Made by a program: the position numbers. From assembly GCF_054482525.1 (NCBI RefSeq), contig NZ_CM137006.1: 64,000 bases of DNA; one strand, written 5' to 3'. Shown here in pieces: positions 51,001 to 57,000 of the stretch (positions are counted from its first letter, which is position 1; every line of letters begins with the position of its first letter).

Positions 51001-54000
51001 AAACAGTCGACAAAATAACGCAACTTTCTCATCCGTGGATAATACGGAAACGCACTGCACAGGACTCTGCGGTTTACGTCACCATTCAATCCCATAAGCT
51101 TCAAGTTATGTTTGCCCTCAGTGCAGCTAATTCATCACTGTCAGATTTATGAACCATATTCGTTACCTGTATCCGATCCACTGAGGCACCACGGCAGAAA
51201 TTCGGGTCCCCTACACTGATGACAAAGCGCCCCGCCCTCTTCTGCCTATTAACTCAAGCACCTCCCAACAACTTACAGAAACTTAATTCTAATACCTAAT
51301 ACAACTGTAATTCAGTTATGTCGTGGTCGGCCCCGGTTGCTTTTTTCGGGAAGCCTGCTACGGCCCAGAATAATACCGTGTTCTTTCTGATCCTGTTTAG
51401 CCAGGTAGCTAAGGGCGTAACGTAAACCGTCTACCGCAGACTTATCACTATAGTGAATCACGTGATCGATACGCACCGGGTATTTGTCTTTAGTACTGCA
51501 CAGGTGAAAATAACCCTCCCCTTCCGTGATCCGACTCCAGATATCTCCCAGTTGCCTGGATATCCGATAAAATTTCTTGTGACGTTGCCCATCCAAGTAG
51601 CCGATAAAATGAATATGAAGTCCCTTGTTTGACGTATATTCCATTACCCAGTAATATCCCGCCAGCATCGTTTGGGTTTCACTAAGTAAGCGGTGCATTT
51701 CAATACACATACTGTGCCTACAGGAATGACCAAAACTGGGCGTGTCTTTCCTGTAGGCAAAATCAATTCTGAAAGGTAACAGTTTAGAAAAACGTTGAAA
51801 CAGACCTTCCATGTGTTCATTCACGTCTTTCAGAATCATGAAGTCCATTTCGTAATTGGGATTAGCATTATACATTTTATAGTCCTTACTTTATAAAAGT
51901 TACAGGAAGGTGGAATTACATAAATACTGAGAGTACAGAAACGCCGTACCGCGGCATTAATAAACGAGGTAACCAGCAGCACAGACAACCTGATAAAACT
52001 GTTTCGTATTACCTCATTACTCCAAAGAGGTAATATTTCAGAGTACAGTAAGACTCACTTAAACTGAGGACCAGTACGAATTACAATGGTAAAAACACAC
52101 CTCATAGAATTGAGTTTAAGGAAGTACCATTCAATCACTTACAGGAAGTAATCTGACATTCACAAAAGCCAGTATCGGGTAGCCACAGGCAACACCGCTA
52201 TTAATACTTCTGTACCATTAAGTAAAAACAGCGACCCAGCTTAAGGCCTCTACAGATATTTAACTTCACCATAAAAATGATGGTATACAGACCATACCCC
52301 ACACACCATAAGAATATTATTTCATACAGGAAAGATTATATTTTTTCATACCTATAAACTGTAACAGAGCCATAACATACTCTAATAGTGTTCCGGTACG
52401 TAACCAGTGTTAAGTGCGTACAAGACAACATAACAGATCACATAACTTCCACTAATAATACTAATTAACCTAAATTATTTATTGAACACGAAAACAATGA
52501 AGGCCCCACCTCACCTCAGACTAAAGCCGACAATATCCTGAGCAACACTCTATCCAATAGTAAATAGTGGTTACACCAGTTATATTTACTGACTGACCTG
52601 TACCAGAGTTTTCTAATACAACGCTGACATGGTAAAGACATTAGTCTCCTCCGCAAGTAGCAGAGGAGACTATATGTACTCAACGATTAAGTCGTTCAGA
52701 GGTCAAAGTTAGGTGCGACACACAACGTTTTTCCCTCAATAACCGGTACAACTCTGTTTTGTTCATACAGTAAATCCAGTAACCAGTTGATTTTATCCTT
52801 TTTCCGGAAACGGTTCGGACCACGCTGTAAAATGTCATTTTTTTTCATACAGAGGATCCCCTTCTCAATACAATAGCTTTTTATCCAGTTGAAAAGTTCA
52901 AGCTCCTCTGGAATGAGTCGCACAGGTACGGTCAGGGCAGAGTTGTCAAAAGTTAACGGATTAGACAACCGCACATACTCATTACCGTACCATATTGCTA
53001 ATTCTCTCGCCATTTCTGCAGTGTAAGGGGAAATCTCCCCCTCTTCACCGCTCGAATGGTAAATAAGTCCTGCCAATCTTGCCATATACTCTGCATTTTT
53101 AGCAGCATATTCCCGGCAATGTCTTAAAGGCCCCAATCCCCCCAGCTTCGATTCCACATCATTGTAATAATCCGTCCAGATTCTGGCAGCCTGAGGAGAA
53201 AAGTGAAGGCAACGTCGTTCACCACTCATCGCCAGACTTTCATCAATAAGCTCATTGATCCTCTCTTCAAACAAATCCTGATACTGTGATGAATAATTAT
53301 CTCCGGTTATTATCCTTGTCCCCTGCGTTGATGTTGGTTGACACATCAAAAACCTTGCATGATGTCCTGACGTTTTCACAATTTCTTTTTTTCGCGTACA
53401 AAAACCTTTGTGGTAAACATCAGGCTGAATCATCACCGATATCGTCAGTCTTGGCTCCTTCAAATTAATTCCGGGAGATGATTTCCTGTCGATGAAAAGA
53501 GAACCTCCATCCCACAAAGTGTTAATAATTCCCAGTTTACTCATGGCCCGGCTGTCAAAAATTACCCCCCCTTCACTGGATACAAGAGCAAAAGAGCGAT
53601 TGCTATCGGAGTAATATTTTAACATTCCCTCTATCGTTGTCTCATTAAAAATTGTTCGACGTATCTGCGGCGGAACAGGAGGTTTATTCAGATGCGTTTC
53701 AAGCTCTGATTCTGTTGCCTTGTAATCTTTACCGGCACGAATCTCTTTATGAAATTTTGATTCCAGCGCTTTTTGTTTTTGCTCCCATATTTCCTTTTCT
53801 GTACTGTAATTCTCAACCAGTTTCGCGTATTCTTCCGCCAGGGCTTCATCCCTGAGATAAAATGCTTTCATAAACACTTTATCCACGGTCGTTTTCCTTT
53901 CACCGGAATCAGCCAGAATCAGAGAGTAAAGATTAACAGGCCCATGTAAATTTCCAGGTCTGCATACGTCAATCTGATTCTGACAGGCAATTGAGATCGC

Positions 54001-57000
54001 TGTTAATGCGGATGTTGCCACCATAGCCAAAGGTGCCTGTGTATTTTTTTGAGTTTCAATTATTGCATTTCTCACCAGCGGTGGTAGTGCATATATCGGA
54101 TAAGGATTTTCTGGTGCAAGTAAGCACATAAAAGCCTCTCTTTTCATTAATGGGTTAGTAAAATAGCAGCAAATCCCGCTACAATAGCGAAAATAGCTGC
54201 TATTCAGACCTGATGCTCTGAGAAATACAGAGCATTTGTAGATCTGATGTTTAATAAACCGATAAGGTTAATTCAGTGAAGACTGTATTATTCACCACGA
54301 AATATCATTCATATTTCTCATTCTTAATACCTCCAGAAATTATTTCACTAATACCTTTCCCCCGGTCTTTTCCCTTTCTCCAGAACCATAGTGTAAATAT
54401 TAACGGCCCCACGTAAATTTCCGGGACTGCATACGTCAACCTGATTCTGACAGGCAATTGACATCGCTGTTAATACTGACATTGCAACCAGAGTCAGAGG
54501 TACTTGTTTATTGTATTGAACTTTAATTATTGCATTCCCTATCATTGATGGTCATGCATATACTGAATACGGCATATCCGGTTTGATGTAAGGCATAAAT
54601 GCTTCCTTTTTCGTAATACGTTTCGGTTATAGCAGCAATTACCGCTACAATAGCGACAATAGCTGCTCTTTCAACAATGAATGCTGGAAATTCTGTTTAT
54701 CAATTAAACTTCTGGCTAAATTGTTCTTATGCTTCTTTTTCCTCCTGAGGTGATCACGTGATGACAAAAACTTATCTGCTCATGGTCATATCTGAAGAAA
54801 GCGTATGTCTCACTTCGTCATTAACACCTTTGACTGCTGATCTGGCAGGTACAGTATGTAAAGTAAGCCATTCGTCAATAGCTGATGAACGCCAGCCCAC
54901 AGAACCACTACCAAGACGTACCGGCCTGGGGAAGGTTGCATCGTAGTATTTCGATAACGGATTCATTTTTTCGTAAATTGTCGAACGAGATATACCTAAC
55001 AATTGGCTCAGTTCAGGCATCCGTAAGATGCGTGAAGGAGTCCTGCAGTGTCCGGATTGATCTGGCATTTTATCCCCCATAGTGTGGTGAACTGTCGTTA
55101 CAGTTTGTATTCCCCGGGTAAATTTGTCTGCGTAAAAAAATGGGTTGAGCAAAAAGACAATAAATAATTAAAAATCAATATGATAGAAAACGACAGCATT
55201 AGTGTTATTTTACTTTTCCCTTATCGCTGTCGATTCTCATTATCATTCATGGCAAAAAAACAGCAAAAGAGGCCCTGGTAATGACTCCTGTCAGTAGTAC
55301 ATGTGTTTTCGATAAATGAACCAATGGCTTTTCGTGAATTTCCAGGGAGCGTAAAAAGTAAATCGTTTTCCGGGCAGGTCGTTTGATGTGAGTACGAAGT
55401 GTCAGATTGTTGCGCTCAATGCGCCGGGTAAATATCTTGCCGACAAGATGCTTATCCTGTGGCATTTCTCTGGTATAACTGCTCCGGTTGTCTCTGGTTA
55501 TCATGCCTGCGGAGAATGGCTTCAGGAATTCCGGCAACTCACGGCATGTTTCATCAGTGCGAGGACCAAAAGTGTAAGCCAGCACACCGTCAGCTTTGGT
55601 CTTATACGCGTACCAGTGCCACTGCTGACGAGCTTTGTTTTCGACAAAACTCCATTGTTCATCAAGTTCACAGATAAGTGCCACATCGACACTGGCGGCT
55701 GGAGATATGGTTACTTTACGTGGTGAGCGTTTTTTAAAGTGAGAATGACGGTGTTGATATCCACCTTCAGCGTTCTGGAGCTATCGCGAACCCCGGCTCC
55801 GTTATGAACCATTTCAACAATTTGCTCTTTAATGCCTGGTTTTCGGGTTTCGTAGATGTAATTCAGTTGAAATACACGTTTGCAGGATTAGCACTGGAAA
55901 CGCTCATGATCTGAGGTGCTGTGATCATAACGGTACACTTTATAGGAATTACAGCGGGGAGAATATACTGTAACTGTTGCCATATGGTCTCCAGATACCA
56001 ATAGAATACAACATTAATCTATCGTCAGAAGGCATCACCGGGGCCTTCTGACATAATCTGTTAATACGTGTACTATTACCCTGTTCAGAAAACATTGATT
56101 CAAAAATGAAAACCAGTTAACAGAAAAGCAAAATGATATAATGTTAAAATTTTATATAGTGCAATAAAAGGAGAATGTTATGTATAATTTTATCACTATA
56201 ATGTATGATGTCTTTTCATGTTTTGGTGTTCTGGCTAAAAACCAGAATAGCCGTGACATCCGAAATATTAAAAATTTTTCCTCACATCAACATTCACTGG
56301 GCGACATGTTTGATGAATTAATAAACATTATTGATAAAGAACAAGTATTGAGTAAAGAACAACGAAAAGTTATATTTAGGAGATATGAAGATCTCTATGT
56401 TAAGCTAATGCACTATTCTGTTTTTACAGACAAAACACATCAAATAATAAAACAAAAATATTTTAATGACATTGTACCAATGATTCTCGCACTCGACATC
56501 AGGAACACATATCGCCCGGATAATGAGATGGCATTTTACTATCATATTCATTCTTTTCTCACTCAGATACCGGATAATGAGGATGATATATATCATGCTG
56601 CAAGGACATATCTGCGAAATTACGTTAAGTTATGTTTATCCGGATACACGCCAGCGAATGCGCATTTCAAAGATATCTTTGATGGCGTATATGAATTCAT
56701 TCGTAATATTCGCAAAAACAGTACACCAGGAAAAACAAAACTTATCGCAACTATCAACACATGCAAAGAAACCTGTAAACATCTGCTTTATTTAAGTAAT
56801 GAAGACAAGGAAAAAATAATTTCTGACTTAGATAAAGTTCAGGTTGCATGTTATTATCTCACTATATTACTGGCTTTCGAAAGACGAACTTCATTAACAA
56901 GCACCCTGGCAACTTTATATAAAATGCTGATAAGCGAAAGAGAAGTTTCAGAATATGAATGCCAGTTATTATATTTAACCAACCCAATAGATGTAATGAA

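What the first reader, a model, noticed from the sequence alone, without database searches (positions are those of the whole stretch)
53921..54670. Tandem, diverged duplication of the DUF3987 gene start and promoter region
About 280 bp including the first ~45 codons and upstream region is repeated at ~80% identity. Both copies keep a GCTACAATAGCG-containing inverted-repeat motif just upstream, which may be an operator, so the duplication could affect regulation.
Basis: seen in the sequence. Interest (0 to 1): 0.35.

Follow-up and report, generated by a model that had tools for sequence, protein, structure and literature searches.

The report
Duplicated helicase-gene start with conserved palindrome
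An E. coli genomic island carries an old, partial tandem duplication of the start of its replicative-helicase gene (yfjI); the extra gene piece is a decaying pseudogene, but the 40-bp palindrome that heads both copies is a conserved control or origin-like site found next to this helicase gene in many bacteria.

Summary
Two direct units (copy 1 at 53844-54246, copy 2 at 54323-54714, period 467 nt) align over 410 columns at 71-76% identity, far above chance. Each unit holds a ~43-bp palindrome, a 5'UTR and about 88 yfjI codons.

Copy 1 begins the intact yfjI gene (DUF3987, MCM-like helicase with a C-terminal winged helix). Copy 2 is a dead 5' fragment: it has an in-frame TGA at codon 15, different lesions in other lineages, and dN/dS near 1.

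The duplication is old (dS 0.33-0.44). About 1,337 of 1,371 complete E. coli genomes with this yfjI subtype carry it. It is absent from 38 other yfjI loci.

The palindrome is the interesting part. Its core is far better conserved than the flanking fragment (3/35 vs 110/275 variable columns, p = 1e-4). It consists of GCTATT repeats arranged as two direct then two inverted copies. It occurs in K-12 CP4-57, many Enterobacterales and Betaproteobacteria, upstream of yfjI in some and downstream in others.

It therefore belongs to the AlpA-YfjI-YfjJ replication module rather than to one promoter or one AlpA type. An origin or initiator-binding site, possibly also an autoregulatory operator, is the best inference, and it is untested. 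Overall this is a modestly interesting, largely ordinary feature.

The parts
52696..54129 (-). Intact yfjI (477 aa): DUF3987 helicase with a C-terminal winged-helix domain.
   Evidence: Pfam DUF3987, E = 3e-84. RefSeq annotates it as 'YfjI family protein'. The AF2 model has pLDDT 90.8, its best PDB matches are MCM helicases, and residues 405-477 form a winged helix.
53844..54246 (-). Duplication unit, copy 1 (proximal): pre-IR sequence, IR1, 5'UTR and yfjI codons 1 to about 90.
   Evidence: Smith-Waterman alignment; the repeat finder families D1/D2.
54162..54204 (.). IR1 palindrome. Minus strand: AATAGCAGCTATTTTCGCTATTGTAGCGGGATTTGCTGCTATT. It lies 33-75 nt upstream of the yfjI ATG.
   Evidence: Inverted repeat I4. 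The sense-strand hairpin folds at -24.6 kcal/mol, z = -5.0. The core has 6/35 variable columns against 56/139 in the spacer, p = 0.01.
54247..54322 (-). Spacer not shared by the two units. It overlaps a 9-codon ORF (54321-54292).
   Evidence: Similarity to the 3' end of the 75-aa alpA gene is only marginal (z <= 3.8). The mini-ORF is lost in L050/L052.
54323..54714 (-). Duplication unit, copy 2 (distal): pre-IR sequence, IR2, 5'UTR and the yfjI' fragment.
54337..54596 (-). yfjI' 5' pseudogene fragment. ATG at 54596, in-frame TGA at codon 15 (54554-54552), and a 10-nt deletion near codon 73. PGAP calls a 65-aa ORF at 54348-54545.
   Evidence: Translations. Pfam matches only the DUF3987 N-terminus, E = 6e-8. 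Lesions differ by lineage and dN/dS among copy-2 sequences is 0.5-1.5. All database relatives are fragments of 52-94 aa.
54628..54670 (.). IR2 palindrome. Minus strand: AGAGCAGCTATTGTCGCTATTGTAGCGGTAATTGCTGCTAT.
   Evidence: The core has 3/35 variable columns against 110/275 in the fragment, Fisher p = 1.3e-4. The sense-strand hairpin folds at -19.0 kcal/mol.
54772..55068 (-). AlpA-family HTH gene (98 aa) immediately upstream of the duplicated region.
   Evidence: Pfam Phage_AlpA, E = 5e-19. RefSeq annotates it as a helix-turn-helix/AlpA family regulator.
51312..51875 (-). YfjJ-like 'inovirus-type Gp2' protein (187 aa), downstream partner in the module.
   Evidence: RefSeq annotation of the identical locus. 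Pfam hits to REP_ORF2-G2P and YagK_YfjJ_C are weak and below cutoff.
58184..59386 (-). Tyrosine integrase of the island.
   Evidence: RefSeq annotation; ORF list.

Best explanation
Shown: this is an old partial tandem duplication inside the replication module (alpA - palindrome - yfjI helicase - yfjJ) of a P4/CP4-57-like E. coli genomic island. A unit of about 470 bp was duplicated. It runs from just after alpA, through the palindrome and 5'UTR, to about yfjI codon 88. The proximal copy heads the intact helicase gene. The distal copy has been decaying neutrally as a 5' pseudogene fragment and occasionally recombines with other yfjI alleles.

Shown: both copies of the ~40-bp palindrome stay conserved. 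The palindrome is built from GCTATT repeats at a 9-bp period, arranged as two direct then two inverted copies.

Inferred: the palindrome is a cis-acting protein-binding site of the helicase module. Most likely it is the site where the island's initiator machinery assembles, namely the MCM-like YfjI with its winged-helix domain and/or YfjJ or AlpA. That would make it an origin-type element. In Enterobacterales, where it sits 45-60 nt before the yfjI start codon, it probably also acts as an autoregulatory operator. On this reading the duplication gives the island two such sites 466 bp apart, either an auxiliary site for cooperative binding or looping, or a bipartite origin. The gene fragment between them is a passenger.
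For: Duplication and decay. The alignment statistics are. dS between copy 1 and copy 2 is 0.33-0.44, at least as deep as the deepest split among intact copies (0.26-0.32). dN/dS is 0.5-1.5 among copy-2 sequences and 0.36-0.55 among copy-1 sequences. Stops and frameshifts are lineage-specific: TGA in the window, TAA plus a frameshift in L003, and a late stop in L002 and L052. No full-length parent of copy-2 type was found in 5.8 billion proteins. The L048/L049 fragment is a chimera of copy-1 and copy-2 types.

Age and spread. The duplicated form is present in lineages 79-86% identical to the window. It occurs in about 1,337 of 1,371 genomes with this yfjI subtype. A single-copy relative, L004, exists. 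None of 38 other yfjI loci has such a fragment.

Palindrome under selection. IR2 core vs fragment gives p = 1.3e-4 and IR1 core vs spacer gives p = 0.01. Across 29 instances 84% of cells are paired, against 25-61% in slid controls, and 10 of 19 pairs show changes on both sides, for example CC..GG to TT..AA in Citrobacter.

Module element rather than a gene-specific leader. The palindrome is upstream of yfjI in K-12 CP4-57 and about 16 Enterobacterales genera. It is downstream of yfjI in Pectobacterium L026, MAG L040 (between yfjI and an HUH-like yfjJ), Rugamonas L024 and Undibacterium L025, the last with a GCTAC variant of the same architecture.

Replication context. DUF3987 is an experimentally shown 5'-3' helicase of mobile-element replication (PMC11724360; PMC5862659). 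Homologues are fused to Toprim, PrimPol or PriCT domains. The model is MCM-like with a C-terminal winged helix.
Against: No binding, transcription or replication data exist for this site. The binder is unresolved. The palindrome co-occurs with AlpA-family genes in 22 of 22 loci and with YfjJ-like genes in 19 of 22 (two of the three exceptions are truncated loci), so co-occurrence does not discriminate. L019 has K-12-like YfjI and YfjJ and the same winged-helix motif, yet it has no palindrome and no AlpA gene, which favours an AlpA link.

Departures from pairing favour U.G on the sense strand (33 vs 8 cells in the core). The sense strand also folds 4-5 kcal/mol better than the antisense strand. 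Both fit an RNA hairpin, but the cells are phylogenetically non-independent.

Two active origins in direct repeat would be expected to be unstable, yet the arrangement is stable in more than 1,300 genomes. The single-copy variant L004 shows that the distal unit is dispensable.

Copy 2 could also descend from a second, diverged island through tandem insertion followed by deletion. The dS data do not exclude this.
Confidence: 0.6

Rival explanations
1. The palindrome is a plain transcriptional operator for the adjacent AlpA-family regulator, or for another repressor, controlling yfjI. The duplication adds a second operator 466 bp upstream that strengthens control by cooperative binding or looping.
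For: The palindrome lies 45-60 nt upstream of the yfjI ATG in all Enterobacterales loci. An AlpA-family gene is present in 22 of 22 palindrome-bearing loci. The one K-12-like module without AlpA (L019) lacks the palindrome. In the window a TTGAAA-16-TATTGT promoter-like match overlaps IR2. Both palindromes are conserved.
Against: The same palindrome follows three very different AlpA subfamilies. In L024, L025, L026 and L040 it lies after yfjI, up to about 445 nt from the next gene. No promoter-like match occurs at IR1, and the total number of hits is at shuffle level. The palindrome has no similarity to the defined P. aeruginosa AlpA element.
Confidence: 0.25
2. The palindrome acts as an RNA hairpin in the alpA-yfjI transcript, as a 5'UTR stability, processing or translation element such as an RNase III site. 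The duplication simply places two hairpins in a longer leader.
For: The sense-strand folds are strong (-24.6 and -19.0 kcal/mol, z = -5.0 and -3.4) and better than the antisense folds (-19.7 and -15.4). Pairs 23-39 and 24-38 show the states C-G, U.G and U-A. Sense wobbles outnumber antisense ones 33 to 8 in the core. The hairpin sits just 5' of the ribosome-binding site.
Against: The arm sequence, and not only the pairing, is conserved from Enterobacterales to Betaproteobacteria, and it contains internal direct repeats at a 9-bp period. That is typical of protein-DNA sites. The position relative to genes changes. There is no Rfam match. It is not a terminator: the U-tract is absent or not conserved. 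The wobble counts reflect few independent events.
Confidence: 0.12
3. There is no function at all. The region is a neutral scar of recombination between two related islands, and the palindrome is conserved only because it is a recombination hotspot or by chance.
For: Mosaic junctions coincide with palindrome edges. The fragment is clearly decaying. The single-copy variant L004 is viable.
Against: The palindrome core is significantly more conserved than its flanks in both copies. It is retained across genera and classes with symmetric compensatory changes.
Confidence: 0.05

Closest known systems
alpA-yfjI-yfjJ module of cryptic prophage CP4-57 (E. coli K-12)
   Same: Same gene order (AlpA-family HTH, DUF3987 YfjI, Gp2-like YfjJ). 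A homologous palindrome (GCTATTTCCGCCATTAATAGCGGAATAGC) lies about 50 nt upstream of yfjI.
   Different: K-12 has a single unit and no 5' fragment. Its YfjI is only 42% identical and its AlpA is a different subfamily (70 aa vs 98 aa). The palindrome has not been described in the papers searched.
Palindromic initiator-helicase origins: SV40 site II (four GAGGC pentamers as inverted pairs) and the papillomavirus E1 binding site (recalled from general knowledge, not tested here)
   Same: Short sequence repeats arranged as two direct then two inverted copies, next to or associated with a hexameric initiator helicase that carries a separate DNA-binding domain. YfjI is MCM-like with a C-terminal winged helix.
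   Different: These are unrelated proteins: SF3 with an origin-binding domain, versus DUF3987/AAA+ with a winged helix. No evidence exists that YfjI binds this DNA or that the island replicates.
Satellite phage P4 bipartite origin (ori + crr iterons bound by the alpha primase-helicase) and SaPI ori iterons adjacent to rep (recalled, not tested)
   Same: An integrative element with a P4-type integrase, an AlpA/Vis-like HTH and a primase-helicase-type replication protein. Repeated cis sites lie next to the helicase gene. Two separated cis regions are analogous to IR1 plus IR2.
   Different: The iteron sequences and proteins differ. P4 crr lies about 4.5 kb from ori and is not a gene-start duplication. 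Here the second site arose by duplicating the gene start, and a single-site variant exists (L004).
Auxiliary operators and DNA looping (lac O1/O3, gal OE/OI, deo O1/O2) (recalled)
   Same: Two copies of a palindromic site a few hundred bp apart, upstream of one gene.
   Different: The binder is unknown, no promoter has been mapped, and the palindrome is not promoter-proximal in distant relatives.
P. aeruginosa AlpA antiterminator and its AlpA-binding element (PMC7969949, PMC9371919)
   Same: An AlpA-family winged-helix protein encoded next to its target operon.
   Different: That element is GGGACGN5GGTA, located between -35 and -10, with no palindrome and no sequence similarity. No conserved terminator lies downstream here.

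Membership tests
Partial tandem duplication leaving a 5' pseudogene fragment | Two adjacent collinear copies in direct orientation with similarity far above chance. | tested here: met
   Smith-Waterman score 333 vs 28 +/- 3.7 for shuffles; period 467 nt.
Partial tandem duplication leaving a 5' pseudogene fragment | One copy is truncated and carries disabling lesions that differ between lineages, with relaxed constraint. | tested here: met
   Lesions: TGA at codon 15 (window), TAA plus a frameshift (L003), late stops (L002, L052). dN/dS among copy-2 sequences is 0.5-1.5, against 0.36-0.55 among intact copies.
Partial tandem duplication leaving a 5' pseudogene fragment | In-situ origin, meaning no closer intact donor allele exists elsewhere. 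| tested here: inconclusive
   Only fragments of 52-94 aa were found in 5.8 billion proteins. In E. coli genomes without the island the best match is 60-80% identical. The c1-c2 dS is compatible with a duplication before the lineages split. An unsampled donor cannot be excluded.
Palindromic transcriptional operator | Dyad symmetry conserved by selection. | tested here: met
   84% of cells paired vs 25-61% in slid controls; core conserved relative to flanks.
Palindromic transcriptional operator | Overlaps or adjoins a promoter of the regulated gene, in a conserved position. | tested here: not met
   One promoter-like match at IR2 uses window-specific sequence, and there is none at IR1. The palindrome lies downstream of yfjI in L024, L025, L026 and L040.
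Palindromic transcriptional operator | A cognate DNA-binding regulator binds it. | not testable with these tools
   Co-occurrence with AlpA is 22/22, but three different AlpA subfamilies share one site.
Iteron or palindromic origin for an initiator helicase | Short repeats at a regular period arranged head-to-head. | tested here: met
   GCTATT-N3-GCTATT | AATAGC-N3-AATAGC. Three repeats per arm in L024, and a GCTAC variant in L025.
Iteron or palindromic origin for an initiator helicase | Physically linked to a replicative helicase gene across divergent elements. | tested here: met
   Found immediately 5' or 3' of yfjI in 22 of 40 species-level loci plus all the E. coli loci examined. DUF3987 is a helicase (PMC11724360).
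Iteron or palindromic origin for an initiator helicase | The helicase or initiator has a sequence-specific DNA-binding domain that binds the repeats, and the site supports replication. | not testable with these tools
   A C-terminal winged helix is predicted with high confidence, but DNA binding and replication are untested.
Rolling-circle (HUH Rep) double-strand origin for YfjJ | A conserved nick sequence in the loop of a hairpin whose stem may vary. | tested here: not met
   The opposite pattern is seen: arms are conserved in sequence, while the centre varies in length and sequence (TTG, TTAA, TTTG, TTGTG, AAAA).
Intrinsic terminator | A GC-rich hairpin followed by a conserved U-tract. | tested here: not met
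   Only copy 1 of the window type has a partial T-run. There is none in copy 2, the K-12 type, L026 or L040.
Any Rfam RNA family | Covariance-model match at or near the gathering score. | tested here: not met
   The only hit is a chance MIR7526 match at 22 bits against a cutoff of 110.
AlpA-binding element (P. aeruginosa type) | The GGGACGN5GGTA motif between -35 and -10. | tested here: not met
   The motif is absent (sequence compared with PMC7969949).

The most novel reading that the evidence does not exclude
The GCTATT iteron palindrome is the replication origin, or double-hexamer loading site, of a widespread but unstudied family of CP4-57-like islands. These islands replicate after excision using the MCM-like YfjI helicase, with YfjJ and/or an AEP primase. 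On this reading the E. coli subtype in the window has evolved a bipartite origin or origin-plus-control site by duplicating the gene start, comparable to P4 ori/crr. The palindrome edges also act as preferred module-exchange points between islands.
Probability: 0.25. Interest if true: 0.55.

Novelty: new member of a known kind. Interest (0 to 1): 0.3.

Why it matters
The duplication itself matters little. It is a stable pseudogene scar that RefSeq already annotates as a small 'DUF3987 domain-containing protein' or 'hypothetical protein', and annotators should treat it as a gene fragment.

The useful by-product is the conserved iteron-type palindrome tied to the YfjI helicase gene from E. coli K-12 CP4-57 to Betaproteobacteria. 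It gives a concrete, testable cis site for asking how AlpA/YfjI/YfjJ islands are regulated and whether they replicate. These islands are present in about a quarter of E. coli genomes, including O157:H7. Natural one-site and two-site variants are available for comparison.

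Tried and rejected
1. Rfam scan of 52000-60500 at E <= 1: nothing relevant at the palindromes.
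2. Terminator reading of the hairpin: the U-tract is not conserved.
3. The 9-codon ORF MRNMNDISW with a GGAGG SD in the spacer looked conserved in four lineages, but its SD, ATG and frame are lost in L050/L052, so I rejected it as a gene.
4. Spacer as a remnant of the alpA 3' end: only marginal (z <= 3.8 with one allele, 0.2-2.3 with the others), so I left it as a possibility.
5. Search for an intact donor gene of copy-2 type: only fragments were found. The 94-aa 'fragments' P0012/P0014 turned out to be contig-end truncations of the intact gene.
6. The 65-aa PGAP ORF as a functional small protein: rejected on dN/dS near 1, lineage-specific lesions and the lack of an SD.
7. Co-occurrence of the palindrome with AlpA vs YfjJ: not discriminating.
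8. Correlation of the YfjI winged-helix motif (KN.ILQ.GP..R) with palindrome type: not discriminating, because L019 has the motif but no palindrome.
9. P. aeruginosa AlpA-binding element: no resemblance.
10. Literature searches on yfjI, alpA, DUF3987, YfjJ/YagK and CP4-57 binding sites: no description of this motif.
11. Sequence search of YfjI against PDB: no hits.
12. A second GCTATT palindrome in the 820-nt yfjI-yfjJ gap of the window: none.

Full report
OBSERVATION. The window is E. coli chromosome. The 1.6-kb region is 99.9% identical to many complete genomes. All relevant genes lie on the minus strand. The repeat finder reports two direct-repeat families, 203 nt at 78% identity and 74 nt at 74%, spaced 467/466 nt apart. 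A local alignment of the two halves defines copy 2 as 54323-54714 and copy 1 as 53844-54246. It spans 410 columns with 292 matches (71% of columns, 76% ungapped) and scores 333, against 28 +/- 3.7 for shuffled sequence.

Each unit contains about 40 nt of pre-palindrome sequence, a ~43-nt palindrome, a ~32-nt 5'UTR with an SD, and about 88-90 yfjI codons. Identity between the units is uneven: 91% for the palindrome core, 83% for codons 21-60, and only 61-67% for the 5'UTR, codons 1-20 and codons 61-90. The 25-nt core pattern occurs exactly twice in 64 kb, with 0 expected.

ANATOMY. Reading the minus strand, the order is:
- an AlpA-family HTH gene (54772-55068, Pfam Phage_AlpA, E = 5e-19);
- IR2 (54628-54670);
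- a yfjI' fragment with its ATG at 54596;
- a spacer;
- IR1 (54162-54204);
- intact yfjI (54129-52696, DUF3987, E = 3e-84);
- a YfjJ-like 'inovirus Gp2-type' gene (51875-51312).
The island's tyrosine integrase is at 58184-59386. The fragment reads MPYIKPDMPYSVYA* and then continues in frame. PGAP annotates its internal 65-aa ORF (54348-54545) as 'DUF3987 domain-containing protein' or 'hypothetical protein'.

THE DISTAL COPY IS A DECAYING PSEUDOGENE IN AN OLD DUPLICATION.
- Spread: the same two-unit arrangement occurs in island variants only 79-86% identical to the window in this region (L002, L003, L048-L053).
- Lesions differ by lineage: TGA at codon 15 in the window, TAA at the same codon plus a frameshift in L003, and an intact codon 15 with a stop near codon 76 in L002 and L052.
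- Substitution rates: dN/dS among copy-2 sequences is 0.5-1.5, against 0.36-0.55 among the intact copies. dS between copy 1 and copy 2 (0.33-0.44) is at least as large as the deepest dS among intact copies (0.26-0.32). This fits a duplication that predates the diversification of this island family, followed by neutral decay.
- Donor search: a search of 5.8 billion proteins with the least-damaged fragment found only fragments of 52-94 aa, all from E. coli, and no full-length parent. Two of the 94-aa hits are contig-end truncations of the intact gene.
- Frequency: about 1,337 genomes carry the duplicated region, out of 1,371 that carry this yfjI subtype.
- Exceptions: a single-unit relative exists (L004: alpA75 - palindrome - yfjI). 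None of 38 other yfjI loci from other species shows an extra N-terminal fragment.
- Recombination: the region is mosaic. Window and L002 are 99-100% identical from the yfjI 5'UTR onward but 84-93% identical upstream of it. The window's AlpA gene is unrelated to that of L002-L004, and homology starts exactly at the distal edge of IR2. In L048/L049 the fragment is a chimera of copy-1 type and copy-2 type.
- Spacer origin: derivation of the spacer from an alpA 3' end is only marginally supported.

THE PALINDROME IS THE CONSERVED, FUNCTIONAL-LOOKING PART.
- Selection: among five duplicated lineages the IR2 core has 3/35 variable columns, against 110/275 in the adjacent fragment (Fisher p = 1.3e-4). 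The IR1 core has 6/35, against 56/139 in the spacer (p = 0.01).
- Distribution: the same element lies upstream of yfjI in K-12 CP4-57 and in about 16 Enterobacterales genera. The consensus is TGCTATTTCyGCTATT|AATAGCGGAATAGCA, meaning two direct GCTATT repeats at a 9-bp period facing two inverted ones. E. albertii has perfect 15+15 arms.
- Covariation: across 29 instances 84% of cells pair, against 25-61% in slid controls. Ten of 19 pairs show double changes, including a symmetric CC..GG to TT..AA change in Citrobacter.
- Position: in more distant elements the same architecture lies downstream of yfjI. These are Pectobacterium L026 (perfect 21+21 arms), MAG L040 (between yfjI and a YfjJ-like gene carrying an HYHFAFF motif), Rugamonas L024 (three GCTATT per arm) and Undibacterium L025 (a GCTAC variant).
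The element therefore travels with the helicase module, not with the yfjI promoter or with one AlpA type. Three AlpA subfamilies, of 70, 75 and 98 aa, precede the same site.

WHAT THE MODULE DOES. DUF3987 has been shown biochemically to be a 5'-3' helicase that partners with a mobile-element primase-polymerase (PMC11724360), and it had earlier been predicted to be a mobile-element replicative helicase (PMC5862659). YfjI homologues are frequently fused to Toprim, PrimPol or PriCT domains. An AlphaFold model of the window's YfjI (pLDDT 90.8) best matches MCM helicases. After a disordered linker it ends in a winged-helix domain (residues 405-477; pLDDT 92.5; ORC2 winged-helix domain TM 0.78, plus BlaI/MecI, MarR and MCM winged-helix domains).

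MECHANISM (INFERRED). The favoured reading rests on four features: head-to-head short repeats, tight linkage to a hexameric-helicase gene on either side of it, conservation of arm sequence rather than only of pairing, and a helicase that carries its own winged helix. Together these point to a protein-binding cis site of the replication module, an origin or initiator-loading site. This is analogous, from general knowledge, to SV40 site II, the papillomavirus E1 binding site, SaPI ori iterons and P4 ori/crr. Where the site sits 45-60 nt before the yfjI start codon, it would also be placed to autoregulate the gene. The duplication would then supply a second site 466 bp away, and the gene fragment would be a passenger. 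None of these steps has been shown experimentally.

RIVALS.
(a) A plain AlpA operator. In favour: the palindrome co-occurs with AlpA in 22 of 22 loci, and the AlpA-less locus L019 lacks it. Against: three divergent AlpA subfamilies share one site, the position varies, promoter evidence is poor, and there is no resemblance to the P. aeruginosa AlpA element.
(b) An RNA hairpin in the leader. In favour: the sense strand folds better than the antisense strand, and sense-strand U.G wobbles outnumber antisense ones 33 to 8. Against: the wobble counts reflect few independent events, and arm-sequence conservation with internal direct repeats is more typical of a DNA site. It is not a terminator and matches no Rfam family.
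(c) A neutral scar. This is contradicted by the conservation tests.
A rolling-circle nick site for YfjJ is unlikely, because the centre of the palindrome varies while the arms are conserved.

COMPARISON AND NOVELTY. The gene fragment is already annotated in RefSeq and is an ordinary partial-duplication pseudogene. The palindrome is shared with CP4-57 but is not described in the papers I could search. I rate the finding as a new member of a known kind. It is a duplicated gene start carrying a conserved iteron-type cis site of a mobile-element replication module. Interest is modest (0.3), and it comes mainly from the testable cis site and the natural one-site and two-site variants.

Noticed in passing
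window 59783-59810 and 59843-59870 (- strand): Two type I-F CRISPR direct repeats (Rfam CRISPR-DR4, 50.1 and 29.7 bits) with a 60-nt period, just beyond the island integrase. This looks like a two-repeat CRISPR remnant.
   Followed up: no
window ~59546-59608 and ~59725-59786: A ~58-nt direct repeat that begins with a tRNA-like 3' end (CCCCCTCACCGCCA) and ends in a hairpin plus T-run. ARAGORN finds no intact tRNA anywhere in the window, so these look like att-type or tRNA-3'-end remnants next to the integrase.
   Followed up: partly
window ~54667/54668 and ~54162; loci L002, L003, L048: Mosaic junctions between island variants coincide with palindrome edges. Homology to L002/L003 begins at the distal edge of IR2. 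Identity to L002 jumps from about 89% to 99-100% at the proximal edge of IR1. The L048/L049 fragment is a chimera of copy-1 and copy-2 types.
   Followed up: partly
L024 3931-3992; L025 3937-3970; L040 4010-4070; L026 3600-3659; L018 3946-3985: In Betaproteobacteria and other distant hosts, a strong palindrome lies immediately downstream of the yfjI-like helicase gene. It is the same GCTATT iteron type in most, a GCTAC variant in L025, and an unrelated sequence in L018.
   Followed up: partly
window 54321-54292 (- strand): A 9-codon ORF (MRNMNDISW) with a GGAGG SD lies in the spacer. It is conserved in four lineages with a synonymous change, but its SD, ATG and frame are lost in L050/L052.
   Followed up: yes
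window 52642-52672: A 13-bp-arm hairpin (TAGTCTCCTCCGC/GCAGAGGAGACTA) about 25 nt after the yfjI stop codon, possibly a terminator. It is followed by an unusually long (~820 nt) yfjI-yfjJ gap.
   Followed up: no
window ~45996-51172 (from the RefSeq annotation of the identical locus L001): The island also carries T6SS sheath genes tssB/tssC, a second Gp2-family gene that is frameshifted, and a truncated 'TOTE conflict system' archaeo-eukaryotic primase fragment. An IS1 pseudogene lies between alpA and a 605-aa hypothetical gene.
   Followed up: no
L019 (Pectobacterium fontis): This module has K-12-like YfjI and YfjJ and the same winged-helix motif, but no AlpA-family gene and no GCTATT palindrome within 2.5 kb. 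It is the only case that separates AlpA from YfjI/YfjJ as the palindrome's partner.
   Followed up: partly
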